Shown piece by piece: positions 1-12,786 of a DNA stretch of 64,000 nucleotides (positions within the stretch are counted from its first letter, which is position 1; every line of letters begins with the position of its first letter). Where the stretch lies: NCBI GenBank assembly GCA_000513055.1, contig AZYB01000001.1:4715-68714 (forward strand), read 5' to 3'. The position numbers and the translations under genes were made by a program. The DNA is from an alpha proteobacterium SCGC AAA288-N07. GTDB lineage: Bacteria; Pseudomonadota; Alphaproteobacteria; Pelagibacterales; Pelagibacteraceae. Below the pieces are notes generated by a model. It was given only the letters and a program-made list of their open reading frames with translations. It did not search any database and was not told the DNA's origin.

Positions 1-1
1 T

Positions 2-106
2 GGTTGGGGTTTAAGTTGGCAAGGACAACAGTTTATACTAGGTTTATTAATTATACCAATGGTAGCTCTATACGCTAGATCGCCACACATTAGATCGCAA
101 ATATAA
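2..106 (+). CDS. 3' end of a gene entering from the left edge; hydrophobic C-terminus, product unknown (probably a membrane protein)
   Basis: Frame 2 is open from the window edge to TAA at 104-106 (GWGLSWQGQQFILGLLIIPMVALYARSPHIRSQI*). Convergent with the MBL gene. Too short to identify. Confidence 0.3.
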   Translation, partial: GWGLSWQGQQFILGLLIIPMVALYARSPHIRSQI

Positions 107-144
107 ATGGAAGCAACAATTAATTTTTCTAAAAAAAATAAAAT

Positions 145-999
145 TTAATCGTAGTAAAACATAGGTGCTTTTTTCCAATCAAGCCAGGAAACTGGATCAT
201 GACCCCAAACGACTTTTGCATCGTGTTCTTTTGCTACCCTTCTTAATTTTTTAACTGATTCTGCTGCATCAGAAGAAGAAGAGGCAAGTCCAGGTAGACA
301 TTTATCACACCAATGATCTCCTGTATAACAAGCATCTCCAGTAAATAACATATGACCAGTTTTTGGAAGATTAACCAGTACAGATTGGTGACCAGGAGTA
401 TGTCCTGGTGTAAATATTAATTTTATAACTCCATCACCATACACATCATAAAAATCAGTTTTTCTAGCCTGCAAGAATTTCCAACGAATATTTGGTTTAT
501 CAAAATCTGCTCTGATATAGGCCGGACCAGAAAACCAATCAGGATTAAATGCATAATCGTATTCTAATCTTTGTGTAATATGAGTAGCATTTGGAAAATG
601 TCCTATTGCACCTGAATGATCTAGATGAAGATGAGTTTGTATCACGTACTTGATATCTTCAGGTTTTGTATTTACAGTTTTTATCATATCTCTACACCAT
701 TCTGATACTTTCATTACTGGGTCATAGGCTTCGACCACAGAACCCCAATGTTTATGTTTGTCAATAGCTGCTTCTATTGGCATTCCACCATCAATAATAA
801 CGTCACCCTCAGGATGTTTAATTAAAAACCATGGCACAGGTATTTCATAAGGTTCATCGCTGTGATTCATTTTTATAAATTTTAATTTCGTTTTAATTGA
901 TCCTGTTTGAAACATATATAACCTAATACCTGAATTAAATTTTTTAGTTTGTTCAAAAATGTCTTTGTTTTTTTCTTGCATAAATATCTGCTCTACCAA
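145..999 (-). CDS. MBL-fold metallo-hydrolase, lactonase-like (AiiA/AttM-type family)
   Basis: 284-aa ORF with the HxHxDH zinc signature (THLHLDHSG), plus TPGHTPGH and later GD/HD ligand-like positions. Last gene of the co-directional cluster. Start overlaps the ADH stop by 7 nt; the Met codon at 979-981 is an alternative start. Confidence 0.7.
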   Translation of the reverse strand: MVEQIFMQEKNKDIFEQTKKFNSGIRLYMFQTGSIKTKLKFIKMNHSDEPYEIPVPWFLIKHPEGDVIIDGGMPIEAAIDKHKHWGSVVEAYDPVMKVSEWCRDMIKTVNTKPEDIKYVIQTHLHLDHSGAIGHFPNATHITQRLEYDYAFNPDWFSGPAYIRADFDKPNIRWKFLQARKTDFYDVYGDGVIKLIFTPGHTPGHQSVLVNLPKTGHMLFTGDACYTGDHWCDKCLPGLASSSSDAAESVKKLRRVAKEHDAKVVWGHDPVSWLDWKKAPMFYYD

Positions 1000-2162
1000 G
1001 CTGCCTGATAAATGTTAAAAGCATCTGCTTCCTTTACTTCTCTCGGATTATTAACTAATAGCCTTGTTTGTTTCATTGCATCACGCGCCATTTTTTCACA
1101 CGCATTTTTTGGTATATCAACTTCCCTTAATTTTTGTGGCAAACCTAATCTCTTTGATAATTCTTCCATCCTGTCAATAAATTCCGCACTGACCGCTTGG
1201 GCTCCTCTATCAGTATTTAAATCTGGAAAAACATAAGGTGCTAGTTCGGCATAATCTTTTGCTGCTTTTGCATCAATACTGTTGAATCTGAGCACATAAG
1301 GTAAAACCAAAGAATTTGAAAGTCCGTGTGAAACATGAAAAGTTCCTCCTAAAGGATATGCTAGTGCATGGACAGCTGCGACCGGAGAGTTTGCAAAAGT
1401 TTTTCCAGCAAGCATTGCTCCAATAAGCATGTTGCCTCTAGCCTCAACATTGGAACCATCTGAAACTGCCGTTTCTATTGAACCTCCAAGCAATTTAAGC
1501 GCCTCTATTGCTAACATTTTTGATATCGGGTTATTATTTTTACTGGTTGAAGCGTATCCCTCAATGGCATGTACCATTGCATCAATACCAGTTGATGCTG
1601 TAGTTCCTGAGGGCAAGCCTAATGTAAGATCCGGATCTAAAATTGCCAAATCTGGTAAAATTATTGAAGACGATACTCCTTTTTTTTCTTCTTCTCCTAT
1701 TGTAATAATTGCAACAGGTGAAACCTCAGAACCTGTTCCTGCTGTAGTGGGAACTAAAACTAGTGGCAAACGAGGTCCTTTAGCGTTTTCAACTCCCCAA
1801 GCCAATTCTAAATCTTCGTTAGAACCAAGTATTAGCGCTACAAGTTTAGCAACGTCCATGGATGATCCTCCACCAAACCCAATAACACCCGTTGCATTAA
1901 ATTTCTTTCCAATTTCTATTGCTGATAAAAGAGTCTTTCGAGATGGATCTGCTTCAACTTCGTCAAATATCTCAACTGAACTAATTTTATTAAGTTCTTC
2001 TATGGTAGGTTTAGTCAATCCTAAAGACATCAAACCTTTATCTGTTATAAAAAGTATACGAAGACCAAGTTTTTTGGAAATTTCTTTACAAGAATCTTTT
2101 GCTTGACCACTACCAAACCGAAGGCCAGGCGTTGTGTTAAAATTAAAAGAATTTAAAGTCAT
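993..2162 (-). CDS. iron-containing (family III) alcohol dehydrogenase
   Basis: 389 aa. Has the glycine-rich GFGGGSSMDVAK nucleotide site and the conserved His-rich metal region (DAMVHAIEGY, HALAYPLGG, HVSHG) typical of Fe-ADH enzymes such as FucO and 4-hydroxybutyrate dehydrogenase. Only 6 nt after the symporter gene. Confidence 0.8.
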   Translation of the reverse strand: MTLNSFNFNTTPGLRFGSGQAKDSCKEISKKLGLRILFITDKGLMSLGLTKPTIEELNKISSVEIFDEVEADPSRKTLLSAIEIGKKFNATGVIGFGGGSSMDVAKLVALILGSNEDLELAWGVENAKGPRLPLVLVPTTAGTGSEVSPVAIITIGEEEKKGVSSSIILPDLAILDPDLTLGLPSGTTASTGIDAMVHAIEGYASTSKNNNPISKMLAIEALKLLGGSIETAVSDGSNVEARGNMLIGAMLAGKTFANSPVAAVHALAYPLGGTFHVSHGLSNSLVLPYVLRFNSIDAKAAKDYAELAPYVFPDLNTDRGAQAVSAEFIDRMEELSKRLGLPQKLREVDIPKNACEKMARDAMKQTRLLVNNPREVKEADAFNIYQAAW

Positions 2163-2168
2163 AATTTT

Positions 2169-4235
2169 TTATACAAAATAAATATAGAATATCACCGAAA
2201 ATATTGCCATTCCTACAAGGATCAATATCCAACCATAGCCTGTTCCAACCTTGTCGATATAATTAACTTCTCCCTGAATTTCATCTGGCTTTTTATAAAG
2301 ATCATTTGCTAGAATTGGTTTGTTGGGCAAGGTTGATAAATCCATTTTGCTAGCTAGAAACCAAATTATTCCTATACCAAAAAGCCACCAAATAAGTTGA
2401 TATCCCCAAATAGAAGGTATTTTAAGAATCCAAGCTTCATAACCCGCTCCAGGCTCTCCAAAAAAATCATTCCCAATTATTTGTCCTGGTCCAACTGCAA
2501 AAAAAAGCCAGATCAAAACAATTACATAAGCAAAGGATCTTAGCTTTGTTCTGCTTGGATGAAGGCCCATATGATCATCTAAAAAATCATGAAACTTTTG
2601 TCTATGAGATCTATAAATATCAATTTTTGTAATATTAGAAAAAGCAGAAATAGAAAAACAAACAAACACATTAAATAACAATCCCCATACTCCAGAGTGT
2701 ATTGTTAGCGGCCATCTTCCCCAGGGCAACCTGTTACCAGTAATTTGTTGTCCTATAGTTTCTGTTAAAATAACTATAATTATTCCAATAATTAATCCAA
2801 ATGTTGCCGCTCCTTTTGTTATCCAAGGAAACCAAATTAGGCCTAGTAAAACAATTAAAAACTGGAATGCTATAGAAATTGCTATGCCACTAAAAATCAC
2901 CATTGCCGGTTTAGCAAATGTTGCTATATAAAGTGAGGCCAAAAATATTAACATCATTATTATACGAGCGACCGCACGTTCCTTTTCCCAACTTACGTTT
3001 TGATTAACATAAACTTTATATAAATCTCTTGTGACAATACTTCCGGATGTCATTAAAAGTGCGGCGGATGTTGACTGGAGAGCTGCAATCAATCCTACTC
3101 CTAACAAACCAGTTAACCAGACAGCATGCTTATCCATTAAGCTTATAATGTGATAAATTATTAGGGAGTGATCCTTATTAGAAACTTCTGGCAATAAAGT
3201 ATTTACAGAAAGACCGCTATTATTGATATCTGCATTGGCCCCTAGTAAACTTGCTCCAATTCCTTGATATGTTGTAAATATAAATAATAATAAACCTACA
3301 ATAACAGCAGATCCCCAAATCTGATAATAAGAAAAAGCTTTTGGATGTTTTACAGAATAACTCCACATAGAAAAAGAAGGCGAAAGAACTATTCCCATAA
3401 ATGAAATTGTAAAAGTAAAAATCATCATTGCTGTCCAAGGGCCACCCACTGCTTCATTCTTTCCTAGTCCTGCCACCCATTGAATGACACCTGGCAAAGC
3501 AAAATAGCTATTATAATCACCACCTCCATAGCCATTGGTGTTTCCCCAACTGCTTACTGATGTGCTGGCTATTTTTGCTAATGATTTACCAAAAGTTTCA
3601 ATATCTCCTACAAAAAAATAAACAATAATTCCCAAAAGAATTATAGTTAAAAAATAAAGCCAAGATTGAACCACCCCTATACTGACAATAGATTTAAATC
3701 CTCCCCTTGTTACATAAAACAAAACAATTAAAGAAATCACCCACATACTAAGTTCTCTAGAAACATATCCTGCTGTTAATGTGTTTACTAAATAGCCTGT
3801 AGCACCAAAAAAAACTGCTAATAGAGGTATTGCTATAAATAAAGTTACCAATACTGAAATAACACGAATTGTATCACTTTTATAATAATCATAATACATT
3901 TCGCCCGGCGTAATATATCCAAACTTTCTACTTAACATCCATTGTCTTTTAAAAAAAAATACACTTCCTAAAGGAACAGTTATGGCAATAAAAGCTGTAC
4001 CGACATACTGAAAACCATCGTGAAAAACAAGACTAGTTTGAGATATTACTGTTAGTCCGGCAAATGTGGCGGTAGTGGCTGCGAAAAAAAAAACCCATGA
4101 AGAAATATTTTTGTTTGCTAAATAATATCTTTCTGGATTTTCAGAATTATATCTTGATCCCCTTACGCCCCAAAAAAAACAATAAACAGCGTACAACAAT
4201 AAAAAAATAAATAACCAAAGAGTTTTTTCGGACAT
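2169..4235 (-). CDS. sodium:solute symporter (SSS) family transporter with a C-terminal membrane extension
   Basis: 688 aa and strongly hydrophobic throughout. The first ~520 aa resemble SSS-family proteins (e.g. TRGGFKSIVSIGVVQS). A further ~160 aa contain 3-4 additional hydrophobic helices. Confidence 0.7.
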   Translation of the reverse strand: MSEKTLWLFIFLLLYAVYCFFWGVRGSRYNSENPERYYLANKNISSWVFFFAATTATFAGLTVISQTSLVFHDGFQYVGTAFIAITVPLGSVFFFKRQWMLSRKFGYITPGEMYYDYYKSDTIRVISVLVTLFIAIPLLAVFFGATGYLVNTLTAGYVSRELSMWVISLIVLFYVTRGGFKSIVSIGVVQSWLYFLTIILLGIIVYFFVGDIETFGKSLAKIASTSVSSWGNTNGYGGGDYNSYFALPGVIQWVAGLGKNEAVGGPWTAMMIFTFTISFMGIVLSPSFSMWSYSVKHPKAFSYYQIWGSAVIVGLLLFIFTTYQGIGASLLGANADINNSGLSVNTLLPEVSNKDHSLIIYHIISLMDKHAVWLTGLLGVGLIAALQSTSAALLMTSGSIVTRDLYKVYVNQNVSWEKERAVARIIMMLIFLASLYIATFAKPAMVIFSGIAISIAFQFLIVLLGLIWFPWITKGAATFGLIIGIIIVILTETIGQQITGNRLPWGRWPLTIHSGVWGLLFNVFVCFSISAFSNITKIDIYRSHRQKFHDFLDDHMGLHPSRTKLRSFAYVIVLIWLFFAVGPGQIIGNDFFGEPGAGYEAWILKIPSIWGYQLIWWLFGIGIIWFLASKMDLSTLPNKPILANDLYKKPDEIQGEVNYIDKVGTGYGWILILVGMAIFSVIFYIYFV

Positions 4236-4251
4236 TTAATCCTTTTTAAAT

Positions 4252-4620
4252 TTAGGTACAACGCCTTGGTGCTGATTCACCTCGCTCTTTTTTAATTCTT
4301 TCTGCTTCTTTCTGTGCCGTTTCAATTGAAGGAAAAACTTTATCTTCGTACAAAATAAATGGTTTAGCTCTGTCAGCATTAAGTTGGGCTACGCACCATT
4401 CTTTACCAGGTTTAGTACACATTACCATGTATGCCCCTGGTATCGGACCGTATTTTCTATTATTTAAAACAAAAAGACATTCTGCAAGATCATTAAGTTT
4501 GTCTTTATCCAAATTGTTTAAAGCAATTTTTTCTAAATCATTTATGGAAGTGACGTTATCAGAACCAAGTATTCCTTTACCGTCGGTACCAGTTGGTCTA
4601 CTTATTTCTACTTTTGACAT
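4252..4620 (-). CDS. small protein, possible second (paralogous) dimethylformamidase small-subunit-like protein
   Basis: 122 aa. Its ATG overlaps the stop of the large-subunit gene (TAATG at 4618-4622). The C-terminal half (PIPGAYMVMCTKPGKEW...KPFILYEDKVFPSIETAQKEAERI) aligns loosely by eye with the C-terminal half of the 138-aa protein at 7000-7416. Confidence 0.45.
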   Translation of the reverse strand: MSKVEISRPTGTDGKGILGSDNVTSINDLEKIALNNLDKDKLNDLAECLFVLNNRKYGPIPGAYMVMCTKPGKEWCVAQLNADRAKPFILYEDKVFPSIETAQKEAERIKKERGESAPRRCT

Positions 4621-6977
4621 TATGGTAATGGCCCTTCCTTTAAAAATCCTCTAATTGCGTTTTCTAAAATTTTAGATACGTTATTGTTGTAATTATTGTA
4701 AGATAAACTTCCACACCATGATAATGATCCAGGTGCGAACAAAGCTCCATCTTTTGGTGTTTTATAGTAAATCATATCAGCTCTAACCATTGGGTTTTCA
4801 GTACCTCCTCCATAAAAACCTCTCACTGAAAAATGAATTTCTTCATTAACTTGTAGCATTAAGTTTGTATGATTTTCAGATCTTGCTAATAAATAAGCGT
4901 TGTGTGGTGTTCCAAAATCTAAATCATATCTATCTAATTCAAGACCAGCTGCTCCACCTCCTACTAGACCAAAATCTCCTATTATTTCGTCTTCTCCCAC
5001 GCCTTCAAAAATCCACGAACATTCTGGTCTCTTACTATCTGGTTCTCTTTTATAATATGAAGAAACATCAAATCCATAAGCAGTAAATGTTAAACCACAT
5101 ACTTTTGAAGGTATTCTTCCACGCGCACGCCACATACCACCATATTTTCCATCAAAAGCATTATTGTATTCCCCGGGATTTGCTGTCCAAGCTCTTGTTC
5201 CGGCTTCACCTTTTCTTACCTCAATAATATTTGTATTGTCCGGGTGATATTCACTAATCCAATAAAAACCATCTGAACCTAAATATATCCATCTCCCACC
5301 GTTTAATTGATAGGACTCATATGCTGCTAACATTTTTTCAGAACTATATTCTGGATGTGAACCAGTTAGTACACATTGGTAACGATTCAACAAATCAACA
5401 CCTTCTATATGTAAATCTTCATCAGTAACAACATCAAAATCAAAATTCTTTTCCTCTAACCAATCAGTTAAATGTAGGTCTGCATTTAATTGCCATAAAG
5501 ATGGAGATAACCAGTGTCTATATTTTGGTCTCATATTAAGTATAGGTCTTAATCTTGAAGAAATAGCTACACCAGTTCCATCAGAGTGTTTTGAATAAGT
5601 TGATAGTCCATATTCTCTGTGTTCATTAAGATACAAATCTGAAGCTGCTAAAACTGGAACCTTTCCAGCAAGTAATTGAGCAACTACTGAATTTGTTCCT
5701 AGGTTGTCGTTTGAATAAGCCATATAACTATTTGAAGGAAGTACGAATAAAAGTTTTGAAGTTGTTTTACCTTTTGGTGGTTTTATTACAAAAGGAACAA
5801 AATCTTCGGTCTCAGGAGAATCTTCTCCATTAATTCTTAACCTTGCAGCATAAACTCCACTTTTAATAAGGTCTGGAATATCAAAAGTAAAATCAACTTC
5901 CCATCTTGCATCATCTATGTCGTCATCGTGAAAATGAATTGCTCCATATTCTTCGGGTTTGTGGTGATATACCATCTCATCTGCAGTCCAATTATATCCT
6001 GTCATTCCTCTATTAGGTAAATTAATAATAAAACCATTTAGGTGATTTGAAGTTGTGTCAATTATAAAAGTAGAAGCTATATTTTTAGTAATATTTGCGT
6101 GAAAATCCCAAGCGCCAATAACTTCAGATCTTAACTCTGATGTGCAACCACCATAACCTCTTGCTAAAGATTCGATCTCAGCTTTTGATAGAGCTTTTCT
6201 ACTTAGTCTTGGTCTATCAATCTTTCCATTGTAAGTTAAAGTTTGTTCTGGTAATTCGACTGGTACAGTAGCTTCTTTGTAATGTCCTCCTTGAATATGT
6301 CTTCCTGTACGATCTACAAGAGTACATGCGGCCATTAAAAAAGGCGTCATGTTTGCTCGTGGTTTTAAATTGCTCGTTGTTTCAACAACAGAAGTAGTTT
6401 CATCAGCCGGGTGCAACAAAGACATTCCCAATCCACCATTTGTGGGTGTAACGCAAGGTTCTTGATAAAGTTTTACTTTTCCTGTTTCAGCATCATAGCT
6501 TACTGCAATAAGGTACCAGACTTTGGCCATTAATTTTTTTTCACTAGACAAATTTGTAACTTGTCCAGCTCCATCACCTATCATTACTGAAAGACAAGCT
6601 TTTTCATCAATAAAAAGGCCATAACCACTTTTTTCAGTTTCATTCCATTTTGTTAAAAGACCTTGCTTTCCTTTATCCGGAGTTGTTGGAAATATATATG
6701 CCTGCAAGGTAAAGCTTTTTGCATTTAATCTTTCGTCATGAGGGATAACAACATAAGATCCTCCATGGATTCTTTGGTTTCTTCCTTTATAGGTTTTATT
6801 ACATTGTGCTCCAGTTTCCTCTTCTTTGTATCCTGGTCCTTCCGGGTTTGTATCTCCATGAATTAATCTTATAATTTGAACATCATAATCTTCATTTTTT
6901 TCAGAATTAATATAAAACTTAACTTTTTCTCCAGGAAACGCAGAGTATTTGTCGCTGTAGCCAGTAATTCTTAACAT
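4620..6977 (-). CDS. N,N-dimethylformamidase large (beta) subunit-like amidohydrolase
   Basis: 785 aa. Full-length resemblance to my recollection of DmfA2: N-terminal RLIHGDTNPEGPGYKEE, then WDFHANI, EEYGAIHFHDDDIDDARWE, LTGSHPEYSS, GLVGGGAAGLELDRYD and C-terminal SLSWCGSLSYNNYNNNVS. Confidence 0.8.
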   Translation of the reverse strand: MLRITGYSDKYSAFPGEKVKFYINSEKNEDYDVQIIRLIHGDTNPEGPGYKEEETGAQCNKTYKGRNQRIHGGSYVVIPHDERLNAKSFTLQAYIFPTTPDKGKQGLLTKWNETEKSGYGLFIDEKACLSVMIGDGAGQVTNLSSEKKLMAKVWYLIAVSYDAETGKVKLYQEPCVTPTNGGLGMSLLHPADETTSVVETTSNLKPRANMTPFLMAACTLVDRTGRHIQGGHYKEATVPVELPEQTLTYNGKIDRPRLSRKALSKAEIESLARGYGGCTSELRSEVIGAWDFHANITKNIASTFIIDTTSNHLNGFIINLPNRGMTGYNWTADEMVYHHKPEEYGAIHFHDDDIDDARWEVDFTFDIPDLIKSGVYAARLRINGEDSPETEDFVPFVIKPPKGKTTSKLLFVLPSNSYMAYSNDNLGTNSVVAQLLAGKVPVLAASDLYLNEHREYGLSTYSKHSDGTGVAISSRLRPILNMRPKYRHWLSPSLWQLNADLHLTDWLEEKNFDFDVVTDEDLHIEGVDLLNRYQCVLTGSHPEYSSEKMLAAYESYQLNGGRWIYLGSDGFYWISEYHPDNTNIIEVRKGEAGTRAWTANPGEYNNAFDGKYGGMWRARGRIPSKVCGLTFTAYGFDVSSYYKREPDSKRPECSWIFEGVGEDEIIGDFGLVGGGAAGLELDRYDLDFGTPHNAYLLARSENHTNLMLQVNEEIHFSVRGFYGGGTENPMVRADMIYYKTPKDGALFAPGSLSWCGSLSYNNYNNNVSKILENAIRGFLKEGPLP

Positions 6978-6999
6978 ATTAACCTTTCAATAATAGTAA

Positions 7000-7416
7000 T
7001 CATTCTCCGTACTTTTCTAAAAGTTCCAAAATTCTTTTTAAAAAAATTGCGTGCTCACAGGCTTCTTCTGAAGAGAAAGGATCGTTTAAAATTTTTACAG
7101 GTTGACCTCTTACTCCACTGCAAACTCCAATCCTGTAATCTTTAAAATCTTTTTTGCATACAGTTATGTATTTTCCAGCCATTGGTTGTCTTCTTAATTT
7201 GTCTAAAACAGTTCTTAATTCTTTGCTATGTTCAACTCCTGGCTGTCCTTTATGAAGTGCAGGAGCTTTACCAACTGGGCATGCTCTATGTTCTTCAATT
7301 AATCGATTTCTGGTTTTTTCATCTCTTAATAAAGGCAAGACATATTTGCGAGTTATAAAATCATCCGTACTTGTATGTCCTTGATTTAATTGTACTCCCG
7401 TTTTATCTTTAGTCAT
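7000..7416 (-). CDS. N,N-dimethylformamidase small (alpha) subunit-like protein
   Basis: 138 aa, located 22 nt upstream of the large-subunit gene as in dmfA1-dmfA2 operons. The C-terminal region QPMAGKYITVCKKDFKDYRIGV...FSSEEACEHAIFLKRI matches the pattern I recall for DmfA1 (QP..G.Y.I....W..YRI...F.tEEEA.HA.FLrRI). Confidence 0.6.
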   Translation of the reverse strand: MTKDKTGVQLNQGHTSTDDFITRKYVLPLLRDEKTRNRLIEEHRACPVGKAPALHKGQPGVEHSKELRTVLDKLRRQPMAGKYITVCKKDFKDYRIGVCSGVRGQPVKILNDPFSSEEACEHAIFLKRILELLEKYGE

Positions 7417-7431
7417 TATTACTCTCCAAAA

Positions 7432-8286
7432 TTACTTGTTGGTCCTTTCTTTAATAATTTTTAACGCTTCCATTAAATAAACACGAAATACTTCATGATT
7501 TTCGCTCATTGGAAAATGTCCTATATCAGTCATTTCTATATAAACTCCTCCTTTTATTTGTCGGGCTGTATTTTCAGTTGCTTCTGGAGGTGTTAGATAA
7601 TCATATGTTCCTGTTAACATAACAACAGGACACTTATGTCCATCAATATTTTTTAATTCTTTTCTTAGATCATGATCAACTGAGTAAAAATATAAATCTC
7701 CCTTAAATGCTTCTGAGCCTTGAGTATAATAGTGCCAAGTCAACCATCTGTCTTTTTCTGGTGATTGTGGTGCCATAAGGTCCCATGTTCCACTTGCACA
7801 AACTTGAGCCGCATTTGCATGAGGATGACGCCACCAATCCAAATAAAAACCAGGAGCATAATCTGCTGCCTCTACTGGTATGACTGCTCTAAATTTATTT
7901 GGATAACGCAAGGCTAATTGTAAAGCTACATTTCCACCAAAAGAAGAACCCATAAAAATAGGTTTTTGCAAACCTAAGGCTTCACATAATTTTAGAATAA
8001 AATTACAATAATGTTCAGCTGTTAATTTGTATTCTTCCTTCCACCATTCTTTGTTATGTGGGGGATCTGACTTTCCATGTCTTGGTAAATCGTAAGCAAT
8101 AACATTGTAGTCTTTAGTAATTTCTTTATCTTCAAGTAAACCTCTCCATTGATGATTGTGACATCCAGCTGTATGTTGGCAAATTAAAGGTATTCCTTTT
8201 CCATTTTGTAAATAGAAAACCTTATATTCACAATCATCAACTTCAATCGTAACATAGCGGCCTACGACTTCGTGATGCACTACCAT
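7432..8286 (-). CDS. alpha/beta-fold hydrolase
   Basis: 284 aa. Nucleophile elbow GSSFGG (GxSxG), a candidate acid in LTGTYDY and a candidate His in DIGHFP. Size and layout are typical of the alpha/beta hydrolase fold. Confidence 0.75.
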   Translation of the reverse strand: MVVHHEVVGRYVTIEVDDCEYKVFYLQNGKGIPLICQHTAGCHNHQWRGLLEDKEITKDYNVIAYDLPRHGKSDPPHNKEWWKEEYKLTAEHYCNFILKLCEALGLQKPIFMGSSFGGNVALQLALRYPNKFRAVIPVEAADYAPGFYLDWWRHPHANAAQVCASGTWDLMAPQSPEKDRWLTWHYYTQGSEAFKGDLYFYSVDHDLRKELKNIDGHKCPVVMLTGTYDYLTPPEATENTARQIKGGVYIEMTDIGHFPMSENHEVFRVYLMEALKIIKERTNK

Positions 8287-8317
8287 TATAATGCTCCTTT
8301 TAATTCAAAATAATTCA

Positions 8318-8707
8318 TTAAACTGGTACTCCTATTTTTCTTAGTAATTCAAACTGAACAGTAAAATTTCTTAAATTTTTCATTAAAATCAAATGATTGC
8401 CCTCAATTTTTAAATCTCTTAAAAAACTTGCAGCCCATATTCCGTGATACATTGGTTTTGGAACGGGTTGCCCAAATTCTTTCCAAGTTTTTGCAGAAGC
8501 TCTAAGAGCAAAATCATAAGGATCCAAAGGTGATGGTTTCGTATTTATGTTTTTAACTTTGCCATCATGCATTTCGATAATTGCTTTTGCATTTTCCATA
8601 TCGAACATAAAGGAACAAGTATAATATTTTGCCATAGCCTTAATAGTTTCATCGCTATTAGTAACCTCTTCATATTTCTTTGCCCAATTATCTAACTCAC
8701 TACTCAT
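8318..8707 (-). CDS. SCP2 (sterol/lipid carrier)-like small protein
   Basis: 129 aa. Overall pattern resembles SCP-2 sterol-transfer domains (alpha-rich N-terminus, FDM...II.M.DGKV, ...LKIEGN..L..KL). Called by eye only. Confidence 0.4.
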   Translation of the reverse strand: MSSELDNWAKKYEEVTNSDETIKAMAKYYTCSFMFDMENAKAIIEMHDGKVKNINTKPSPLDPYDFALRASAKTWKEFGQPVPKPMYHGIWAASFLRDLKIEGNHLILMKNLRNFTVQFELLRKIGVPV

Positions 8708-8722
8708 AATATTTTACTTTCG

Positions 8723-8987
8723 TTACTTAGAACTTTTGCTTCCTTTAGTTGGATCTTTATCAAAATTCATATGATAATCTTTTTTAGGATTTTCATAATC
8801 GCCAAGAATATTTCTGATATTGCTTATCTCTCCAGGATGCATGCCAATTTCTTTAAGCAAATGATCTAGAAATGGTTGGTGTGCTCTATAACGTAATGCA
8901 GAACTAACTACGCTATCTGCTAAATTGCCACTTCTTCCAGATCCACCACCTTGAGTGCCTGCAGTTACTGCTTCACCACTGCCCCCC
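8723..8987 (-). pseudogene. out-of-frame C-terminal continuation of the flotillin gene
   Basis: The listed 126-aa ORF (8723-9103) overlaps the flotillin 3' end in another frame. From the G6 run onward it encodes a Gly-rich linker followed by NLADSVVSSALRYRAHQPFLDHLLKEIGM. This looks like the usual YqiK/flotillin C-terminus rather than an independent protein. Confidence 0.6.
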
Positions 8988-10706
8988 TGAACCAGAAGTT
9001 CCACTAAAGCCAGGTAAACCATTAACATCAACAATTTTAATATCTCCAATGTTCGCCATCGGTTTAACACTTTCTCTAATGATTGCTTCAATTTTTTCAG
9101 CAAGTTTTAATCTTAAAGCACTTCTTCTGCTTGCATCACTTCTCAAGTTCTCAGCAGCATTTAATGCTTCCTTACCAGCAGCATCTATCTCATATCTTAG
9201 TTTTGCTGCCAAAGTTGCAAATCTATCCTGTTCGGCTTTTGAAGCAGCAGTGATGACATCAACTTTCTTAATACCTTGGGCTTTTTCAACGTACATAGCT
9301 GAGTTCGCTTTTTCTTCAGCTTCTACTGCTCTAGCTCTAGTAACCTGTTCTTCAGCTTTAGATTTTAAAACTTGTTTAGATTTATTTATAACTTCAAGAT
9401 TTTTTTGATGTTCTTCTATACTTAATCTTTTCGTTTTATCTATATCAAGAAGTCTTGTTTCTCTTTCTGACTCAATTCTGTGAGCATCTAGATTTCTTTG
9501 TTGAGCAATTTTAGCATTTTTAATATCTTGTTCAGAAATTATTTGTGCTTCCTCAGCATCTTTTTGTCTTTCAGACTGTTCTTTAATTATAGTAGCTTTC
9601 TCTTGTGCCCGTTTCACATCAACGAGTCTTTGTTTTTCTAAACGTGCATACTCACTTTCTTTATCTAATTTTAAAATCTTAACTTCTGTCTCAAGATCTT
9701 TTTGCCTAATTTCATACGCCGAATTTTTCTCTAATTCGTTTTGTTCTTTTCGACGTTTTTCAATTTCTTCGATCAATCTTGTTTCTGTTAGTTTTTTTTC
9801 AACTTCAATAACCTGATTTTGCGAAATTTTTGCAACTTCAATTTGTTCTTGACTGCTTATTTCAGCTTCCTCAGCTTCACGTTCTTTTTCTGCTCTTTGT
9901 TTAACAGTTTCAGTTCTTTCTTTGGCTTTTTGAATGGCAATTTCTCTTTCTTGTTTGTATCTAGAAAATTCTTCGTTCTTCTTAATTTCTAGTTCTTTTT
10001 GAATCGTTTCTAAATTTTTACTTTCAATTGAAACTCTTGTATCTTGTGAAATAGCGTTTCTTTTTTTCTTTCTAGACTCAATTTGTTCAGTTAATTGTGT
10101 TAAACCTTGAGAATCAAAAGTATTTGCAGGATTAAACTGTTCGATTGGAGTTTGATCCAAAGATATAATAGAAACTGTTTCTAGTGCTAAACCTGTATGT
10201 CCTATCGATGCATCTGCAATTTTTGTAACATCTTTTACAAACTGTCCTCTATTTTCTTGTATTTCATCCAGTGTCATTTTTGCAGCAACTTCCCCTAGCG
10301 CATCTGCAAAACGACCTTGTACTACCTCTCTTAAATGTTCAGGATCAAGAGTTCTGTTACCTAAAGTTTGTGCAGCAGTTGCTACGGCTTTTTGTTCAGG
10401 TGGAACTTTTGTAAAAAATTCCGTAACTAGTTCTGCTCTCATTCGGTCTTTTGTTATCAAAGATTTGTCTCCACTTCTTTTTATAGTTATGCTCAGAGTA
10501 CGCATTCCCACTTGAGTTATGTTGTGAATTATAGGTAAGACAAAGGCTCCTCCCGATATAACTACTTTCTCACCAAGCATTCCTGTACGTACAAATGAAA
10601 CTTCCTTAGATGATCTTCTGTATAACCAATGCAATAGATAAACTATAATCGCTATTGCAAGTGCTAGTAGAATTATTGCTGCTATTATATCTGCTCCTCT
10701 AGTCAT
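8973..10706 (-). CDS. flotillin / SPFH (band 7) family protein (YqiK-like), apparently truncated by a frameshift
   Basis: 577 aa. N-terminal membrane anchor (IIAAIILLALAIAIIVYLL), SPFH core (VRTGMLGEKVVISGGAFVLPIIH...), and a long E/K/Q/A-rich coiled-coil region. Ends just after a G6 homopolymer (8982-8987). Starts 18 nt after the rhodopsin stop. Confidence 0.8.
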   Translation of the reverse strand: MTRGADIIAAIILLALAIAIIVYLLHWLYRRSSKEVSFVRTGMLGEKVVISGGAFVLPIIHNITQVGMRTLSITIKRSGDKSLITKDRMRAELVTEFFTKVPPEQKAVATAAQTLGNRTLDPEHLREVVQGRFADALGEVAAKMTLDEIQENRGQFVKDVTKIADASIGHTGLALETVSIISLDQTPIEQFNPANTFDSQGLTQLTEQIESRKKKRNAISQDTRVSIESKNLETIQKELEIKKNEEFSRYKQEREIAIQKAKERTETVKQRAEKEREAEEAEISSQEQIEVAKISQNQVIEVEKKLTETRLIEEIEKRRKEQNELEKNSAYEIRQKDLETEVKILKLDKESEYARLEKQRLVDVKRAQEKATIIKEQSERQKDAEEAQIISEQDIKNAKIAQQRNLDAHRIESERETRLLDIDKTKRLSIEEHQKNLEVINKSKQVLKSKAEEQVTRARAVEAEEKANSAMYVEKAQGIKKVDVITAASKAEQDRFATLAAKLRYEIDAAGKEALNAAENLRSDASRRSALRLKLAEKIEAIIRESVKPMANIGDIKIVDVNGLPGFSGTSGSGGQW

Positions 10707-10724
10707 AAATTATTTCTCCCAAAT

Positions 10725-11423
10725 TTAAGTTGCTTTCTTTGTATCGTTTAAAGCAGCGCCGTAGATTATCATTCCAAAAATGATTTTGTTTAATATGTCT
10801 GCTAAGTTGTAAATAATGTTTAAACTGTTAATGTTTGCGCCTCCGGCCAAGTGCTCAATAAAATATCCTATATGGTAAATTGAGAAACCTATGGTTATAA
10901 TCAATCTATTTGCAAAGAATGCCATTTGAACACTTTCATTGTTACAAGAAGCATTTTGTCTTCCTGCATCTCCCATGTAAAGTTCGCCAATAATATAAAG
11001 CCAACCAACAATACCTACTAAAAAGCCAAGAGTAACACTCATATATCCATAAGCTCCTAATAGCTGGGCTATAACCCAGACTAATGTTCCCACAAGCAGT
11101 CGCCAGAACATTCCTCTCTTAACGTTAGTAACCGACTTAAGCATTACGTAAAAAGTTAAAATCGTGAGCGGGAAAGTTAATATCCAATCAATATATCTTA
11201 AAGCTGTAGGTGCCTGACCATTCAAAACCCATAAATTTTTTGCATAGAGATAATGTATAGAGGACATTAGAGCTATTACCCCCACAAGATTCATTGCCGT
11301 TCCCCATCTGTTCGACAGACGGCCTCTCTCTAAGAAGAAAAATATCGCCGCTCCTATCATTGCAACCGAAATTAACCAAAAAGATCCTCCGACGACGTCC
11401 TGTGGCAGCAATAATTTGTTCAT
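10725..11423 (-). CDS. microbial (type 1) rhodopsin, divergent proteorhodopsin paralogue with a D-T-T motif
   Basis: 232 aa with 7 hydrophobic helices. Aligns along its whole length with green proteorhodopsin: SFWL, FFFLER, IHYLY, RYIDWILTFPL, NLADILNKIIFG with the Schiff-base Lys at residue 213. The donor position is Thr. No signal peptide. AAGGA SD-like sequence upstream of the ATG. Confidence 0.85.
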   Translation of the reverse strand: MNKLLLPQDVVGGSFWLISVAMIGAAIFFFLERGRLSNRWGTAMNLVGVIALMSSIHYLYAKNLWVLNGQAPTALRYIDWILTFPLTILTFYVMLKSVTNVKRGMFWRLLVGTLVWVIAQLLGAYGYMSVTLGFLVGIVGWLYIIGELYMGDAGRQNASCNNESVQMAFFANRLIITIGFSIYHIGYFIEHLAGGANINSLNIIYNLADILNKIIFGMIIYGAALNDTKKAT

Positions 11424-11690
11424 GATTTCCTTTTCAGACTTTTTTTTTATTTTTTTCTATTAAAATTGTATTTTTTATACAAATCAATAAAATAAAATTT
11501 GATTTAAGTAAAAAATATTTCAAAATCTTTTAAAATACCTCTAAAAAAAATTTATTTTTTTAACAATTCAATTAACACTAGAATTTTTTTAAAATTGTTT
11601 TTTTTGGTTTAAGTTAAGCAACGGATGGGTTGTTTATAATTTTAAAATTCCACTTCGTTAAATATTTATTATCTATATTATTATGCTTGA

Positions 11691-12329
11691 ATGCTTTCTA
11701 AAGTCATAACAATAGCGCAACAAAAAGGAGGTACGGGAAAAACAACTTTGGCAGTGCATTTGGCTCTGGCTTTAATAAAATACCATAATCTAAAAATTGT
11801 TATTATTGATACCGATCCACAAGGAAGTCTTGGTAAGTGGTATATTATTCGTTCAGAAAAAAAACTTTCAAACGACAATTTAACTTTTAAAACTGCCAGT
11901 TTATGGGGGGCTCAGTATGAGTCAAAAGCATTAAAAAAAGATCATGATATTGTAATTATAGATACTCCACCGAAAATTGAATCTGATGCACGTCCATCTA
12001 TTGAAGCTGCAGATTTAGTTTTAATACCAATGACACCTTCTCATGTTGATTTTTGGGCTACTGAAGCAATTGTAGAGATTGCAAAAAAAGCAAATAAAAA
12101 AATATTAATACAAATCAACAGAGCTAATCAACGATCTAAACTTATAAGTAAGACAAATGAATATATTAAAAGTATAAATCTTTCACCAACCCAAACAATA
12201 GTTGGACATCGACAAATTTTTGCATCATCTATGGGGGAAGGTAAAACTGCAGTGGAAAAACAAAAAAAAGGTAAAGCTGTAGAAGAAATAAAAAAGCTAA
12301 CAGAACAAATTCTATTAGAATTAAAATAA
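11691..12329 (+). CDS. ParA/MinD-family P-loop ATPase (small, orphan ParA-like)
   Basis: 212 aa. Deviant Walker A QKGGTGKTT near the N-terminus, plus IIDTDPQGS and IIDTPP motifs. No parB-like gene follows. Confidence 0.8.
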   Translation: MLSKVITIAQQKGGTGKTTLAVHLALALIKYHNLKIVIIDTDPQGSLGKWYIIRSEKKLSNDNLTFKTASLWGAQYESKALKKDHDIVIIDTPPKIESDARPSIEAADLVLIPMTPSHVDFWATEAIVEIAKKANKKILIQINRANQRSKLISKTNEYIKSINLSPTQTIVGHRQIFASSMGEGKTAVEKQKKGKAVEEIKKLTEQILLELK

Positions 12330-12415
12330 TTTTATCATTTAAAATTTATTGGCGTAATTTAAATCTATGTTGCAATTTTTATATCCTTCTATAATGGTAT
12401 TTATATAGCTTTTAG

Positions 12416-12489
12416 GAGGTTTCTTAATAAAATATTTATTCATCATATAAATGAGGTTTCTTAATAAAATATTTATTCATCATATAAAA
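12416..12489. repeat. 37-bp tandem duplication (2 copies, 36/37 identical)
   Basis: Copy 1 at 12416-12452 is gaggtttcttaataaaatatttattcatcatataaat. Copy 2 at 12453-12489 is identical except for the last base. Covers the 3' end of the GGCT-like ORF. Confidence 0.95.
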
Positions 12490-12783: not shown

Positions 12784-12786
12784 TGA

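What the first reader, a model, noticed from the sequence alone, without database searches (positions are those of the whole stretch)
145..11423. Eleven-ORF co-directional, compositionally distinct cluster led by the rhodopsin
All ORFs from 11423 down to 145 are on the minus strand. Junctions are 18, 15, 31, 15, 22, -1 (TAATG), 16, 6 and -7 nt, which is consistent with a single transcript starting in the 267-bp spacer at 11424-11690. The cluster ends against a convergent gene (2-106). By eye this block is clearly richer in G+C than the housekeeping genes to its right: single 60-nt lines counted by hand gave 37%, 43% and 55% here against 15% for one line in the core. This has not been computed over the whole region. 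It combines a sensory-looking rhodopsin, a flotillin, lipid-handling proteins, an amidase complex, a Na+ symporter and two further catabolic enzymes. I do not recognise this combination as any described pathway. It could be a horizontally acquired, possibly light-coordinated, uptake and catabolism island.
Basis: partly seen in the sequence, partly recalled or inferred. Interest (0 to 1): 0.65.

Follow-up and report, generated by a model that had tools for sequence, protein, structure and literature searches.

The report
Known SAR11 flotillin-rhodopsin (FAR) gene island
This block is one more copy of the already published "flotillin-associated rhodopsin" gene cluster of SAR11 bacteria: a light-blind rhodopsin relative and a membrane-scaffold protein are co-transcribed with a transporter and amide- and lactone-splitting enzymes, and the cluster's function is still unknown.

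Summary
All genes from 11423 down to 145 are on the minus strand with the stated short junctions. There are ten genes, not eleven. The "extra" ORF (8723-9103) is the C-terminus of the flotillin gene, split by one extra base in a G6 run (8982-8987).

G+C is 34.7% against 29.5% in the rest of the window. That is real but far smaller than the hand counts, and it lies mostly in codon positions 1 and 2.

The block is the FAR gene cluster of Pelagibacterales (Haro-Moreno et al. 2023), gene for gene. About 48 SAR11 genomes carry the same order. Alpha- and Gammaproteobacteria and a Verrucomicrobiaceae MAG carry a recognisable version.

The rhodopsin is a DTT-T FArhodopsin. That type was reported not to bind retinal, so "sensory" and "light-coordinated" are not supported.

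The "amidase complex" is a dimethylformamidase-like iron amidase with two small alpha-like subunits.

RNA contigs and a conserved promoter support one main transcript. In this genome the island ends about 12304-12330, and related contigs without the island there carry tRNA-Leu and variable genes instead.

Verdict: already known, function open. The best guess is a flotillin/FAR membrane platform coupled to uptake and hydrolysis of a small amide or lactone compound.

The parts
11691..12329 (+). ParA/MipZ-like P-loop ATPase (212 aa), divergent from the operon. It is gene cds01 of the published FAR cluster and the right-hand end of the island in this genome.
   Evidence: Pfam AAA_31, MipZ and CbiA. 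It is 81-87% identical and always divergent upstream of FAR in about 48 SAR11 loci. Listed in Table S2 of PMC10308929. Colinear similarity to contig L060, which lacks the island here, stops at about 12304.
11424..11690 (-). 267-nt spacer holding the operon promoter. The -35 TTGATT is at 11487-11482 and, after 17 nt, the -10 TTTAAT is at 11464-11459. A conserved motif TTCTA-N6-ATTGAATT lies upstream at 11583-11565.
   Evidence: Alignment of 18 spacers and coordinates. RNA contig depth is zero over 11474-11665 in four metatranscriptomes, while four DNA metagenomes cover it.
10725..11423 (-). FArhodopsin (232 aa) of the SAR11 DTT-T type. Key residues are D79, T83, T90, T87, F84, Q120 and K213. 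It probably binds no retinal.
   Evidence: Pfam Bac_rhodopsin. The best PDB hit is 9r21, 'flotillin-associated rhodopsin', E 6e-88. It is 94-95% identical to the FAR of AG-390-L03. Literature.
8723..10706 (-). Flotillin (SPFH/Band 7 plus Flot domains), split by a one-base insertion in the G6 run at 8982-8987. The N-terminal 577 aa are read from 8973-10706. The C-terminal end continues in another frame down to 8723.
   Evidence: RNA contigs from four runs lack one base at 8981-8983.
8318..8707 (-). 129-aa protein, probably with an SCP2-like lipid-binding fold.
   Evidence: Pfam SCP2 only at E 0.078, covering 19-110. Assigned to the InterPro SCP2 superfamily in Table S2. It is 76-79% identical in the distant loci L053-L056. 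The AlphaFold single-sequence model was unusable.
7432..8286 (-). Alpha/beta-fold hydrolase (284 aa) of unknown substrate. It is the most conserved protein of the cluster.
   Evidence: Pfam Abhydrolase_1, E 5e-23. It is 84-86% identical in the distant MAG loci L049-L057. PDB gives only weak esterase and epoxide-hydrolase hits.
7000..7416 (-). Dimethylformamidase small (alpha) subunit homologue (138 aa). The published table annotates it as 'inner-membrane translocator'.
   Evidence: PDB 6lvb_B, DMFase small subunit, E 2e-5. Pfam PF26354 DMF_alpha hits its orthologues.
4620..6977 (-). Dimethylformamidase large (beta) subunit homologue (785 aa), an Fe-dependent amidase.
   Evidence: Pfam DMFA2_C, E 2e-90. 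PDB 6lvb_A, E 2e-186, with Y399, Y440, E521, H519, E657 and F693 conserved and N547 replaced by D. The residue at position 547 is N or D among close relatives.
4252..4620 (-). Second alpha-like small subunit (122 aa). Its start overlaps the large subunit's stop (TAATG).
   Evidence: Profile-profile match to the first small subunit: probability 85.5%, E 6e-6. Pfam DMF_alpha hits its orthologues.
2169..4235 (-). Sodium:solute symporter family transporter (688 aa).
   Evidence: Pfam SSF and NCBIfam TIGR00813, both below any specific subfamily cut-off.
993..2162 (-). Iron-containing alcohol dehydrogenase (389 aa). It is a variable, distal part of the operon.
   Evidence: Pfam Fe-ADH and ADH_Fe_C. 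Marked 'SAR11 only' in Table S2. A variant that joins 105 to 2145, lacking this gene and the next, is seen in runs X1 and X9.
145..981 (-). Metallo-beta-lactamase-fold lactonase (278 aa from the ATG at 981; the ORF extends to a TTG at 999).
   Evidence: Pfam Lactamase_B. PDB 9kho, 'N-acylhomoserine lactonase', E 2.5e-95 over 257 residues.
2..106 (+). C-terminal end of an ABC-transporter permease (BPD_transp_2 type) that belongs to the other half of the FAR cluster, which lies beyond the window.
   Evidence: 85% identical over 34 aa to the 472-aa permease just upstream of FAR in L044. Pfam assignment of the homologous permease of L053. Table S2, genes cds17-21.

Best explanation
Identity (near certain): this is the right-hand part of the published Pelagibacterales FAR gene cluster. 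It consists of a divergent ParA/MipZ-like gene, a conserved spacer and a ten-gene operon. The operon order is FArhodopsin, flotillin, SCP2-like protein, alpha/beta hydrolase, DMFase alpha-like, DMFase beta-like, DMFase alpha-like, Na+/solute symporter, Fe-alcohol dehydrogenase and lactonase. The other half of the cluster, an ABC transporter, converges on it from beyond the window's left end.

How it most likely works (largely inferred):
1. One sigma-70-type promoter in the spacer drives a polycistronic RNA. FAR and flotillin are its most abundant part.
2. FAR is a seven-helix protein that no longer binds retinal. Together with the membrane-anchored flotillin it forms a membrane platform, not a light sensor.
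3. The platform serves the pathway that always travels with it. The symporter (and the ABC system) import a small amide-containing compound.
4. A three-subunit iron amidase of the dimethylformamidase type splits that compound into an amine and formate or another acid.
5. The lactonase, the alcohol dehydrogenase, the alpha/beta hydrolase and the SCP2-like protein handle the rest of the molecule or related substrates. The substrate is not known.

The cluster is a flexible island spread by horizontal transfer. In this genome it lies next to the GGACT gene, where related contigs without the island carry tRNA-Leu(UAA) and variable genes.
For: Identity:
- The gene-for-gene order matches Table S2 of PMC10308929.
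- FAR is 94-95% and the other products 76-92% identical to those of AG-390-L03 (L015), and about 48 SAR11 loci carry the same order.

Transcription:
- A -35/-10 pair is conserved across 18 spacers.
- RNA contigs from four metatranscriptomes tile the operon but give zero depth over 11474-11665. DNA metagenomes do cover that stretch.
- RNA contigs cross the FAR/flotillin, flotillin/SCP2, SCP2/ABH, ABH/alpha and lactonase/ADH junctions.
- FAR-flotillin co-transcription is published.

No light role:
- The motif is DTT-T, with the aromatic F84 at the position that blocks retinal in PsFAR.
- SAR11 DTT-T proteins showed no retinal binding or pumping in E. coli.

Functional link:
- Every FAR locus with enough sequence keeps FAR, flotillin, the symporter and the alpha-beta-alpha' trio, and mostly a lactonase-like gene, despite shuffled gene order and host G+C from 30% to 62%. 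These loci include MAGs labelled Rhizobiaceae, Hyphomicrobiales, Rhodobiaceae, Chromatiales, Oceanospirillaceae and Verrucomicrobiaceae, and FARs only 53-54% identical.

Amidase competence:
- The Fe ligands Y399, Y440 and E521 and the residues H519, E657 and F693 are conserved.
- Both small ORFs belong to the DMF_alpha family.

Island status:
- The published absence from isolate genomes.
- The core flank (GGACT, CinA-like, SfsA, map, purB, grx, rpsD) occurs in 80 metagenome contigs, and none has ParA or FAR after it.
- In those contigs tRNA-Leu(UAA) lies 0.1-4.6 kb downstream, with variable inserts between.
Against: - No experiment links FAR or flotillin to the enzymes.
- The alpha-beta-alpha' trio also occurs on its own, without FAR, flotillin or the symporter (L144, L146, L147). 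It therefore does not need the platform.
- The substrate is unknown. DMF is described as not known in nature (abstract of bioRxiv 10.1101/2019.12.17.879908).
- The symporter, the alcohol dehydrogenase and the alpha/beta hydrolase match no specific subfamily.
- The oxyanion residue N547 is D here.
- RNA contig depth is uneven, highest over FAR and flotillin. Contigs carry no strand and may contain some DNA, so internal starts or partial termination are not excluded.
- Retinal binding was not tested for this exact protein, which keeps K213 and has Q, not E, at position 120.
- In this genome the flotillin reading frame is broken.
Confidence: 0.5

Rival explanations
1. The hypothesis of the paper that described the cluster. 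FAR and flotillin form membrane microdomains that hold or tune the cell's true proteorhodopsin proton pump in dim light. The transporters and enzymes are passengers or only loosely related.
For: - Genomes with FAR always have a separate proteorhodopsin, and the cluster is most abundant at the deep chlorophyll maximum and in the lower photic zone.
- FAR keeps the pentameric rhodopsin architecture.
- FAR and flotillin are the most highly represented part of the operon in RNA contigs.
Against: - It does not explain why the dimethylformamidase-like trio, the symporter and the ABC transporter stay linked to FAR and flotillin across Alpha- and Gammaproteobacteria and a Verrucomicrobiaceae MAG, through several rearrangements.
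- At station ALOHA the DTT-T genes were found predominantly at 200-1000 m.
- No proteorhodopsin gene lies in the window.
Confidence: 0.2
2. The rhodopsin is a light sensor that coordinates expression or activity of an uptake and catabolism island.
For: - The retinal lysine K213 is kept, and position 120 is Q rather than the E that helps to block retinal in PsFAR.
- The rhodopsin leads the operon.
Against: - SAR11 DTT-T rhodopsins bound no retinal and gave no light response in E. coli, and converting working pumps to DTT-T abolished their pumping.
- The aromatic residue at position 84, which fills the polyene channel, is present as F84 and is conserved in the clade.
- There is no transducer, kinase or regulator gene in the operon.
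Confidence: 0.07
3. The block is a mosaic of functionally unrelated small modules (FAR-flotillin; SCP2-hydrolase; amidase trio; symporter; dehydrogenase-lactonase) that sit together because flexible genes pile up at insertion hot spots.
For: - The amidase trio exists alone elsewhere.
- The dehydrogenase and lactonase are missing in some environmental variants (joint 105 to 2145).
- The SCP2-like protein and the hydrolase are missing from the Oceanospirillaceae version.
- The carboxylase/PxpA block of AG-390-L03 is not found beside the lactonase gene here.
- The insertion site is hypervariable.
Against: - The core set (FAR, flotillin, symporter, trio, ABC transporter) is retained in every FAR locus examined, including very distant hosts.
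- Intergenic gaps are 6-31 nt with one start/stop overlap.
- RNA contigs cross module boundaries.
Confidence: 0.15

Closest known systems
FAR gene cluster of Pelagibacterales SAG AG-390-L03 (Haro-Moreno et al., mSystems 2023, PMC10308929)
   Same: The genes and their order are the same: ParA/MipZ, long spacer, FAR, flotillin, SCP2-like, alpha/beta hydrolase, small ORF, DMFase, small ORF, Na+/solute symporter, Fe-ADH and lactonase. Products are 76-95% identical.
   Different: - Here the flotillin is frameshifted.
- The permease gene abuts the lactonase gene directly, so the BCCP/carboxyltransferase/PxpA block (cds12-16) is not at that position.
- The thioesterase gene that follows ParA in other SAGs is missing.
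- The chromosomal neighbours differ.
PsFAR, the FArhodopsin of Pseudothioglobus (PDB 9r21; Kovalev et al. 2025)
   Same: It is the closest solved structure (E 6e-88). The alignment is ungapped over 229 residues. The retinal lysine is kept and an aromatic residue sits at position 84.
   Different: The window protein has F84 and Q120 where PsFAR has H84 and E120. Its third motif residue is T90 where PsFAR has M (read from the alignment). Retinal binding was not measured for this protein.
N,N-dimethylformamidase of Paracoccus sp. DMF (PDB 6lvb; Arya et al. 2020, PMC7686228)
   Same: The large subunit matches along its full length (E 2e-186), with the 2-Tyr-1-Glu iron site and H519, E657 and F693 conserved. 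A small-subunit homologue lies beside it.
   Different: - There are two alpha-like small subunits instead of one.
- N547 is D.
- It is embedded in a membrane-protein operon.
- The natural substrate is unknown, and DMF is described as not known in nature.
Flotillins FloT and FloA of Bacillus subtilis (membrane microdomain scaffolds)
   Same: It has Band 7/SPFH plus Flot domains, an N-terminal membrane anchor and a long coiled-coil middle part.
   Different: The match to the NCBIfam FloT model is only weak (26.8 bits against a cut-off of 700). The published tree places FAR-linked flotillins in a cluster of their own. No cargo has been identified.
AiiA-type N-acyl-homoserine lactonases (PDB 9kho, 2a7m)
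   Same: The metallo-beta-lactamase fold with the HxHxDH motif. The match to 9kho is E 2.5e-95 and to AiiA E 1e-30.
   Different: Activity was not tested. The family also contains lactonases for other substrates, for example 4-pyridoxolactonase.

Membership tests
FAR gene cluster (Haro-Moreno et al. 2023) | The rhodopsin belongs to the FArhodopsin clade and carries a DTT, DTL or DNI motif. | tested here: met
   The best PDB hit is 'flotillin-associated rhodopsin' 9r21 (E 6e-88), ahead of proteorhodopsins (E 2e-57 or weaker). The motif residues are D79, T83 and T90. The protein is 94-95% identical to the FAR of AG-390-L03.
FAR gene cluster (Haro-Moreno et al. 2023) | A flotillin gene lies directly downstream on the same strand, about 16 nt away, and is co-transcribed. 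| tested here: met
   The gap is 18 nt. Pfam Band_7 and Flot match. An RNA contig spans 10617-10794. The reading frame is broken by one base.
FAR gene cluster (Haro-Moreno et al. 2023) | The ten-gene co-directional set follows a long conserved spacer, with the published gene content. | tested here: met
   The order is identical to Table S2 genes cds02-cds11 and to about 48 SAR11 loci. The spacer is 267 nt and carries conserved motifs.
FAR gene cluster (Haro-Moreno et al. 2023) | The second half of the cluster is present: an ABC transporter, and in SAR11 also biotin carboxylase, carboxyltransferase, PxpA and an aldolase. | tested here: inconclusive
   Only the last 35 codons of the permease lie in the window (2-106). 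The carboxylase/PxpA block is not between the permease and the lactonase as it is in AG-390-L03. The rest lies outside the window.
FAR gene cluster (Haro-Moreno et al. 2023) | A bona fide proteorhodopsin is encoded elsewhere in the same genome. | not testable with these tools
   There is no second rhodopsin in the 64-kb window, and the rest of the genome is not available.
Flexible genomic island | The cluster is absent at the same site in related genomes, and its neighbours vary. | tested here: met
   None of 80 metagenome contigs carrying the adjacent core genes has ParA or FAR there. Similarity to L060 ends at about 12304. None of the 59 FAR loci shares this window's right flank. The absence from isolate genomes is published.
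Flexible genomic island | Marks of site-specific integration are present: an integrase, flanking direct repeats or a tRNA at the border. | tested here: inconclusive
   There is no integrase or tRNA within 1-12400. The site without the island carries tRNA-Leu(UAA) 0.1-4.6 kb after the GGACT gene, and L124 has two copies of it. The left border is outside the window.
Retinal-free rhodopsin (as PsFAR) | A bulky aromatic residue at position 84 fills the polyene channel. | tested here: met
   F84 appears in an ungapped alignment with PsFAR H84. The preprint states that aromatic residues are conserved at this position in FARs.
Retinal-free rhodopsin (as PsFAR) | E120 blocks the beta-ionone pocket. 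| tested here: not met
   The window protein has Q120. [quoted passage not shown]
Retinal-free rhodopsin (as PsFAR) | The protein binds no retinal. | not testable with these tools
   Reported for SAR11 DTT-T proteins expressed in E. coli (PMC5864233), not for this exact sequence.
Sensory rhodopsin | A cognate transducer or signalling partner is encoded beside it. | tested here: not met
   No Htr-like transducer, kinase or regulator is among the operon products.
N,N-dimethylformamidase (DmfA1/DmfA2) | The large subunit carries the 2-Tyr-1-Glu iron site and the catalytic H519, N547 and E657. | tested here: inconclusive
   Y399, Y440, E521, H519, E657 and F693 are conserved, but N547 is D. Close relatives carry either N or D at that position.
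N,N-dimethylformamidase (DmfA1/DmfA2) | A small alpha subunit is encoded next to the large one. | tested here: met
   ORF 7000-7416 matches 6lvb_B (E 2e-5). ORF 4252-4620 is a second, more distant alpha-like protein.
N,N-dimethylformamidase (DmfA1/DmfA2) | The enzyme hydrolyses DMF or N-alkylformamides. | not testable with these tools
   This needs an enzyme assay.
SCP2 sterol-carrier fold (the 129-aa protein) | The protein shows a significant match to the SCP2 domain or fold. | tested here: inconclusive
   Pfam SCP2 matches at E 0.078, below the cut-off. There is no PDB sequence hit. The AlphaFold single-sequence model has pLDDT 44.8. InterPro assigns the orthologue to the SCP2 superfamily.

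The most novel reading that the evidence does not exclude
FArhodopsin and flotillin are not light-related at all. They are the membrane platform of a horizontally mobile uptake-and-hydrolysis pathway. The invariant enzymatic core of that pathway is a three-subunit (alpha-beta-alpha') dimethylformamidase-type iron amidase. Its natural substrate would be an unrecognised small amide, lactone or lactam compound of marine dissolved organic nitrogen, used by SAR11 and several other marine bacterial groups in the lower photic and upper mesopelagic zone.
Probability: 0.3. Interest if true: 0.65.

Novelty: already known. Interest (0 to 1): 0.33.

Why it matters
The cluster was described in 2023 and sits in some of the most abundant bacteria in the sea. 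Its function is still open, and the leading published idea is that it helps proteorhodopsin in dim light.

What this look adds is modest but testable.
- FAR and flotillin never appear here without a symporter, an ABC transporter and a dimethylformamidase-like amidase with two small subunits. One of those small subunits is mis-annotated as a 'translocator' in the published table.
- The enzymes are far better conserved across distant hosts (75-86% identity) than FAR (62%) or flotillin (54%).
- That points to nutrient uptake and amide hydrolysis, rather than light, as the job the platform serves.
- It also gives a natural context for an enzyme family known only from degradation of a synthetic solvent.

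For the scan itself, the finding is a correct rediscovery and not a new system.

Tried and rejected
- Consensus promoter and terminator scans of 1-12800 found no more sites than shuffled sequence, and no terminator in any intergenic gap, so they were not used.
- Rfam found only two tRNAs far from the block and no riboswitch in the spacer.
- An exact-sequence look-up of the window's Fe-ADH found no contig, so the window could not be extended to the left.
- The AlphaFold model of the 129-aa protein from a single sequence had pLDDT 44.8 and was not searched against structures.
- The second small subunit has no PDB sequence match, alone or as a profile. Its relationship rests on profile-profile comparison and the newer Pfam family.
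- N547D was considered as a mark of a distinct enzyme subfamily and rejected. N and D both occur among 72-81% identical relatives, whether or not they lie next to FAR.
- The high GC3 of the rhodopsin gene was considered as a sign of very recent transfer. It is shared by all SAR11 orthologues (0.20-0.35), and C-ending Phe, Tyr and Asn codons contribute to it. Codon selection in a highly expressed gene is at least as likely.
- No public run holds the source genome (best word share 0.56). The G6 run could therefore not be checked in raw reads, and the ParA/GGACT junction could not be confirmed by a spanning contig.
- No paper citing PDB 9kho was found.

Full report
**1. What is in the sequence**

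Family searches name the products as follows:

| Coordinates | Product |
|---|---|
| 10725-11423 | rhodopsin |
| 8973-10706 | flotillin (Band_7 plus Flot domains) |
| 8318-8707 | 129-aa protein |
| 7432-8286 | alpha/beta hydrolase |
| 7000-7416 | 138-aa protein |
| 4620-6977 | N,N-dimethylformamidase beta-like protein |
| 4252-4620 | 122-aa protein |
| 2169-4235 | sodium:solute symporter |
| 993-2162 | iron alcohol dehydrogenase |
| 145-999 | metallo-beta-lactamase-fold protein |

The eleventh ORF (8723-9103) is not a gene of its own.
- It carries the end of the Flot domain in another frame.
- The two frames meet at a G6 run at 8982-8987.
- The nearest relatives read GGAGG there.
- Removing one base restores a 660-aa flotillin that is 93% identical to that of locus L021, right to the C-terminus.
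- All 15 SAR11 orthologues checked are single ORFs of 655-664 aa.
- RNA contigs from four metatranscriptomes lack one base at this spot.

The frameshift is therefore either an assembly error or a very recent mutation. The source reads could not be found.

**2. Composition**

The block is 34.7% G+C and the rest of the window is 29.5%. No window of equal size elsewhere exceeds 30.7%. The excess sits in codon positions 1 and 2, which reflects amino-acid content. GC3 is nearly the same (0.198 against 0.177).

The exception is the rhodopsin gene, with GC3 0.356 (z = 6.8), to which C-ending Phe, Tyr and Asn codons contribute. All SAR11 orthologues share this property (GC3 0.20-0.35, against 0.12-0.18 for their flotillins). 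It is a feature of the gene and not evidence of recent arrival here.

The same module occurs in hosts of 30-62% G+C, and its composition follows the host's. The synonymous sites in SAR11 are therefore fully adapted. The higher GC1 and GC2 most likely reflect strongly conserved proteins.

**3. What it is**

The best solved-structure match of the rhodopsin is PDB 9r21, 'flotillin-associated rhodopsin' (E 6e-88), well ahead of proteorhodopsins. That led to Haro-Moreno et al. 2023 (PMC10308929). The paper describes a roughly 26-kb 'FAR gene cluster' in Pelagibacterales, HIMB59 and Pseudothioglobus single-cell genomes. [quoted passage not shown]

Their Table S2 for SAG AG-390-L03 lists exactly the genes found here, in the same order. 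These are ParA/MipZ-like, FAR, flotillin (658 aa), SCP2-like, alpha/beta hydrolase, a 139-aa ORF, DMFase, a 121-aa ORF, the symporter, Fe-ADH and a lactonase-family protein. Beyond them the table lists BCCP, carboxyltransferases, PxpA, an ABC transporter and an aldolase.

A scan of one genome per species returned 59 loci.
- About 48 Pelagibacteraceae SAGs, MAGs and one isolate (Uisw_094) show the same order, with the ParA-like gene always divergent upstream.
- The ORF end at 2-106 is the C-terminus of the cluster's ABC permease.
- In this genome that permease abuts the lactonase gene directly. The carboxylase/PxpA block of AG-390-L03 is therefore not at that position.

**4. The rhodopsin is not a sensor**

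In an ungapped alignment with PsFAR, the window protein has D79, T83 and T90 (the DTT motif), T87 at the tuning site, F84, Q120 and the lysine K213.

Olson et al. 2018 found SAR11 DTT-T proteins abundant below 200 m at station ALOHA. Expressed in E. coli, these proteins neither bound retinal nor pumped (PMC5864233).

The cryo-EM study of PsFAR shows that H84 fills the polyene channel. It states that an aromatic residue at that position is conserved in the clade, and that E120 is less conserved. F84 fits the first point and Q120 fits the second.

No transducer or regulator gene lies in the operon. Retinal binding by this exact protein remains untested.

**5. The 'amidase complex'**

The large protein aligns along its full length with the Paracoccus DMFase large subunit (E 2e-186). 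It keeps the iron ligands Y399, Y440 and E521, the residues H519 and E657, and F693 as defined by Arya et al. 2020 (PMC7686228). N547 is D here, but relatives of 72-81% identity carry either N or D.

Both small ORFs are alpha-subunit relatives.
- The 138-aa ORF matches the DMFase small subunit (E 2e-5). The published table calls it an 'inner-membrane translocator'.
- The 122-aa ORF is a more distant paralogue (profile-profile probability 85.5%, E 6e-6).
- The newer Pfam family DMF_alpha hits both small ORFs in related contigs.

The enzyme is therefore most likely an alpha-beta-alpha' iron amidase. The solved Paracoccus enzyme hydrolyses DMF, N-methyl- and N-ethylformamide and formamide. DMF is described as not known in nature, so the natural substrate of this family is open.

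The last gene is about 60% identical to a solved 'N-acylhomoserine lactonase' (9kho, E 2.5e-95). The hydrolase, the dehydrogenase and the symporter match no specific subfamily. The SCP2 assignment of the 129-aa protein is weak in my hands (E 0.078; failed model).

**6. How widely the set travels together**

The table gives the identity of window products to their homologues in distant MAGs labelled Rhizobiaceae, Poriferihabitaceae, Hyphomicrobiales, Chromatiales and Rhodobiaceae (loci L053-L057, 47-62% G+C).

| Product | Identity |
|---|---|
| alpha/beta hydrolase | 84-86% |
| DMFase beta | 77-81% |
| SCP2-like protein | 76-79% |
| FAR | 62-63% |
| flotillin | 53-57% |
| symporter | 44-46% |

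These MAGs keep FAR, flotillin, SCP2-like, hydrolase, a lactonase-like gene, the symporter and the trio. The ABC transporter, and there also hydantoinase A/B, lie just upstream.

Contigs found through the amidase or through FARs only 53-54% identical give the same picture in Oceanospirillaceae, Verrucomicrobiaceae and unnamed lineages. Carboxyltransferase (PxpB/C-type) genes lie nearby in two of them.

Three contigs of two further lineages carry the alpha-beta-alpha' trio alone. In this sample, then, FAR implies the trio, the symporter and the ABC transporter, but the trio does not imply FAR.

That asymmetry is the main reason I favour a model in which FAR and flotillin serve the uptake and hydrolysis pathway. 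ATP-dependent lactam-opening enzymes recur in two unrelated forms (PxpA with carboxyltransferases, or hydantoinase A/B), and a lactonase recurs as well. This hints at a ring-containing amide substrate, but that is speculation.

**7. Transcription**

An alignment of 18 spacers shows a conserved TTGATT-N17-TTTAAT pair (11487-11459), about 35 nt before the start codon. An upstream conserved motif TTCTA-N6-ATTGAATT (11583-11565) is duplicated in seven loci.

Contigs from four independent metatranscriptomes cover the operon. Five of the nine junctions between genes are crossed by a listed RNA contig: FAR/flotillin, flotillin/SCP2, SCP2/hydrolase, hydrolase/alpha and lactonase/ADH. A sixth, alpha/DMFase, has non-zero depth in runs X1 and X9.

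All four runs show zero depth over 11474-11665, although DNA metagenomes cover that stretch. This argues that the RNA contigs are real transcripts, that the 5' end lies near 11440-11470, and that ParA is transcribed separately.

Depth is highest over FAR and flotillin and lower downstream, as the paper also reports. Attenuation or extra internal starts cannot be excluded. Contigs have no strand, and their depth is a poor measure of expression.

The ADH/symporter junction is variable. Contigs in two runs join 105 directly to 2145, which is a form without the dehydrogenase and the lactonase.

**8. Island borders**

To the right of ParA lie core genes: GGACT-family, CinA-like, SfsA, map, purB, glutaredoxin and rpsD. 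None of the 59 FAR loci shares this flank. In other SAGs ParA is followed by a 4HBT thioesterase gene and then by different metabolic genes in each lineage.

Eighty metagenome contigs carry the CinA-like gene, nearly all together with the neighbouring GGACT gene. None has ParA or FAR after them.
- The closest one (L060) is colinear with the window from 18062 to about 12304 and then continues with a different gene (a predicted membrane protein) and what looks like the start of a tRNA gene.
- In 13 contigs a tRNA-Leu(UAA) lies 0.1 to 4.6 kb after the GGACT gene, with variable genes in between. One contig has two copies of the tRNA.

In this genome the island therefore ends at about 12304-12330, at the ParA stop codon. 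It occupies a position where other SAR11 contigs carry variable genes and tRNA-Leu. No integrase or repeat was seen, and the left border is off the window.

A deletion of the whole FAR cluster has been reported as a population-level structural variant in Pseudothioglobus (PMC12379486).

**9. Verdict**

- The 'island' and 'single transcript' ideas are supported.
- The 'sensory' and 'light-coordinated' ideas are not supported.
- The combination is already described, so novelty is 'already known'.
- Identity is near certain.
- The mechanistic model is an inference from conserved linkage and from homology to characterised enzymes. It proposes a retinal-free FAR plus flotillin platform coupled to a symporter, an ABC transporter and a three-subunit DMFase-like amidase with accessory hydrolases. 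I put it at roughly one in three.

Noticed in passing
window 8982-8987: A one-base insertion in a G6 run splits an otherwise intact flotillin gene. Relatives read GGAGG there, within a Gly/Ser-rich linker of variable length.
   Followed up: yes
window 10725-11423: The rhodopsin gene has GC3 0.356 against about 0.18 for every other gene in the window, with a preference for TTC, TAC and AAC codons. All SAR11 FAR orthologues share this, but the adjacent flotillin does not.
   Followed up: partly
window 11565-11583; also L001, L002, L003, L007, L008, L009, L021: The conserved motif TTCTA-N6-ATTGAATT lies about 100 nt upstream of the promoter. Seven loci carry it twice in tandem. It could be an operator for an unknown regulator.
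   Followed up: no
window 105 to 2145: Contigs in metatranscriptome runs X1 and X9 join the permease end directly to the end of the symporter gene. This is a natural variant of the cluster without the alcohol dehydrogenase and the lactonase.
   Followed up: partly
window 107-144: The ABC permease gene ends 38 nt from the lactonase gene. The roughly 4.5-kb BCCP/carboxyltransferase/PxpA block that separates them in AG-390-L03 is not at this position.
   Followed up: partly
window 12304-12435; L060, L063, L097, L101, L134, L124: Related SAR11 contigs carry tRNA-Leu(UAA) 0.1-4.6 kb after the GGACT gene, with different genes in between. L124 has two copies of the tRNA 1.3 kb apart. This looks like an insertion hot spot.
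   Followed up: partly
L015 8658-9125, L027 8636-9103, L002 8613-9074: In other FAR-bearing SAR11 genomes a 4HBT-family thioesterase gene follows the ParA-like gene on the same strand. It is missing in the window.
   Followed up: partly
L053 2125-6220 (also L056, L057); L149 19387-20705; Table S2 genes cds13-16: Enzymes of two unrelated families whose members open lactam rings with ATP recur next to FAR clusters. Hydantoinase A/B appears in Rhizobiales-type MAGs. PxpA with carboxyltransferases appears in SAR11 and in another lineage.
   Followed up: no
L142 7560-14549: On one contig the symporter-amidase-lactonase module sits beside a transposase fragment and a phage-type integrase. That fits mobility of the module.
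   Followed up: no
L044 17217-17495, L045 13347-13637, L049 13972-14247, L145 12722-13000: A small ORF of about 92 aa, with no family match on record, follows the second alpha-like gene in some lineages. It is absent in the window.
   Followed up: no
window 8800-13200 in DNA runs X25-X28: At 95% identity or more, metagenome contig depth over the island is several-fold higher than over the adjacent core genes. The island therefore seems less diverged among SAR11 lineages than the flank is.
   Followed up: no
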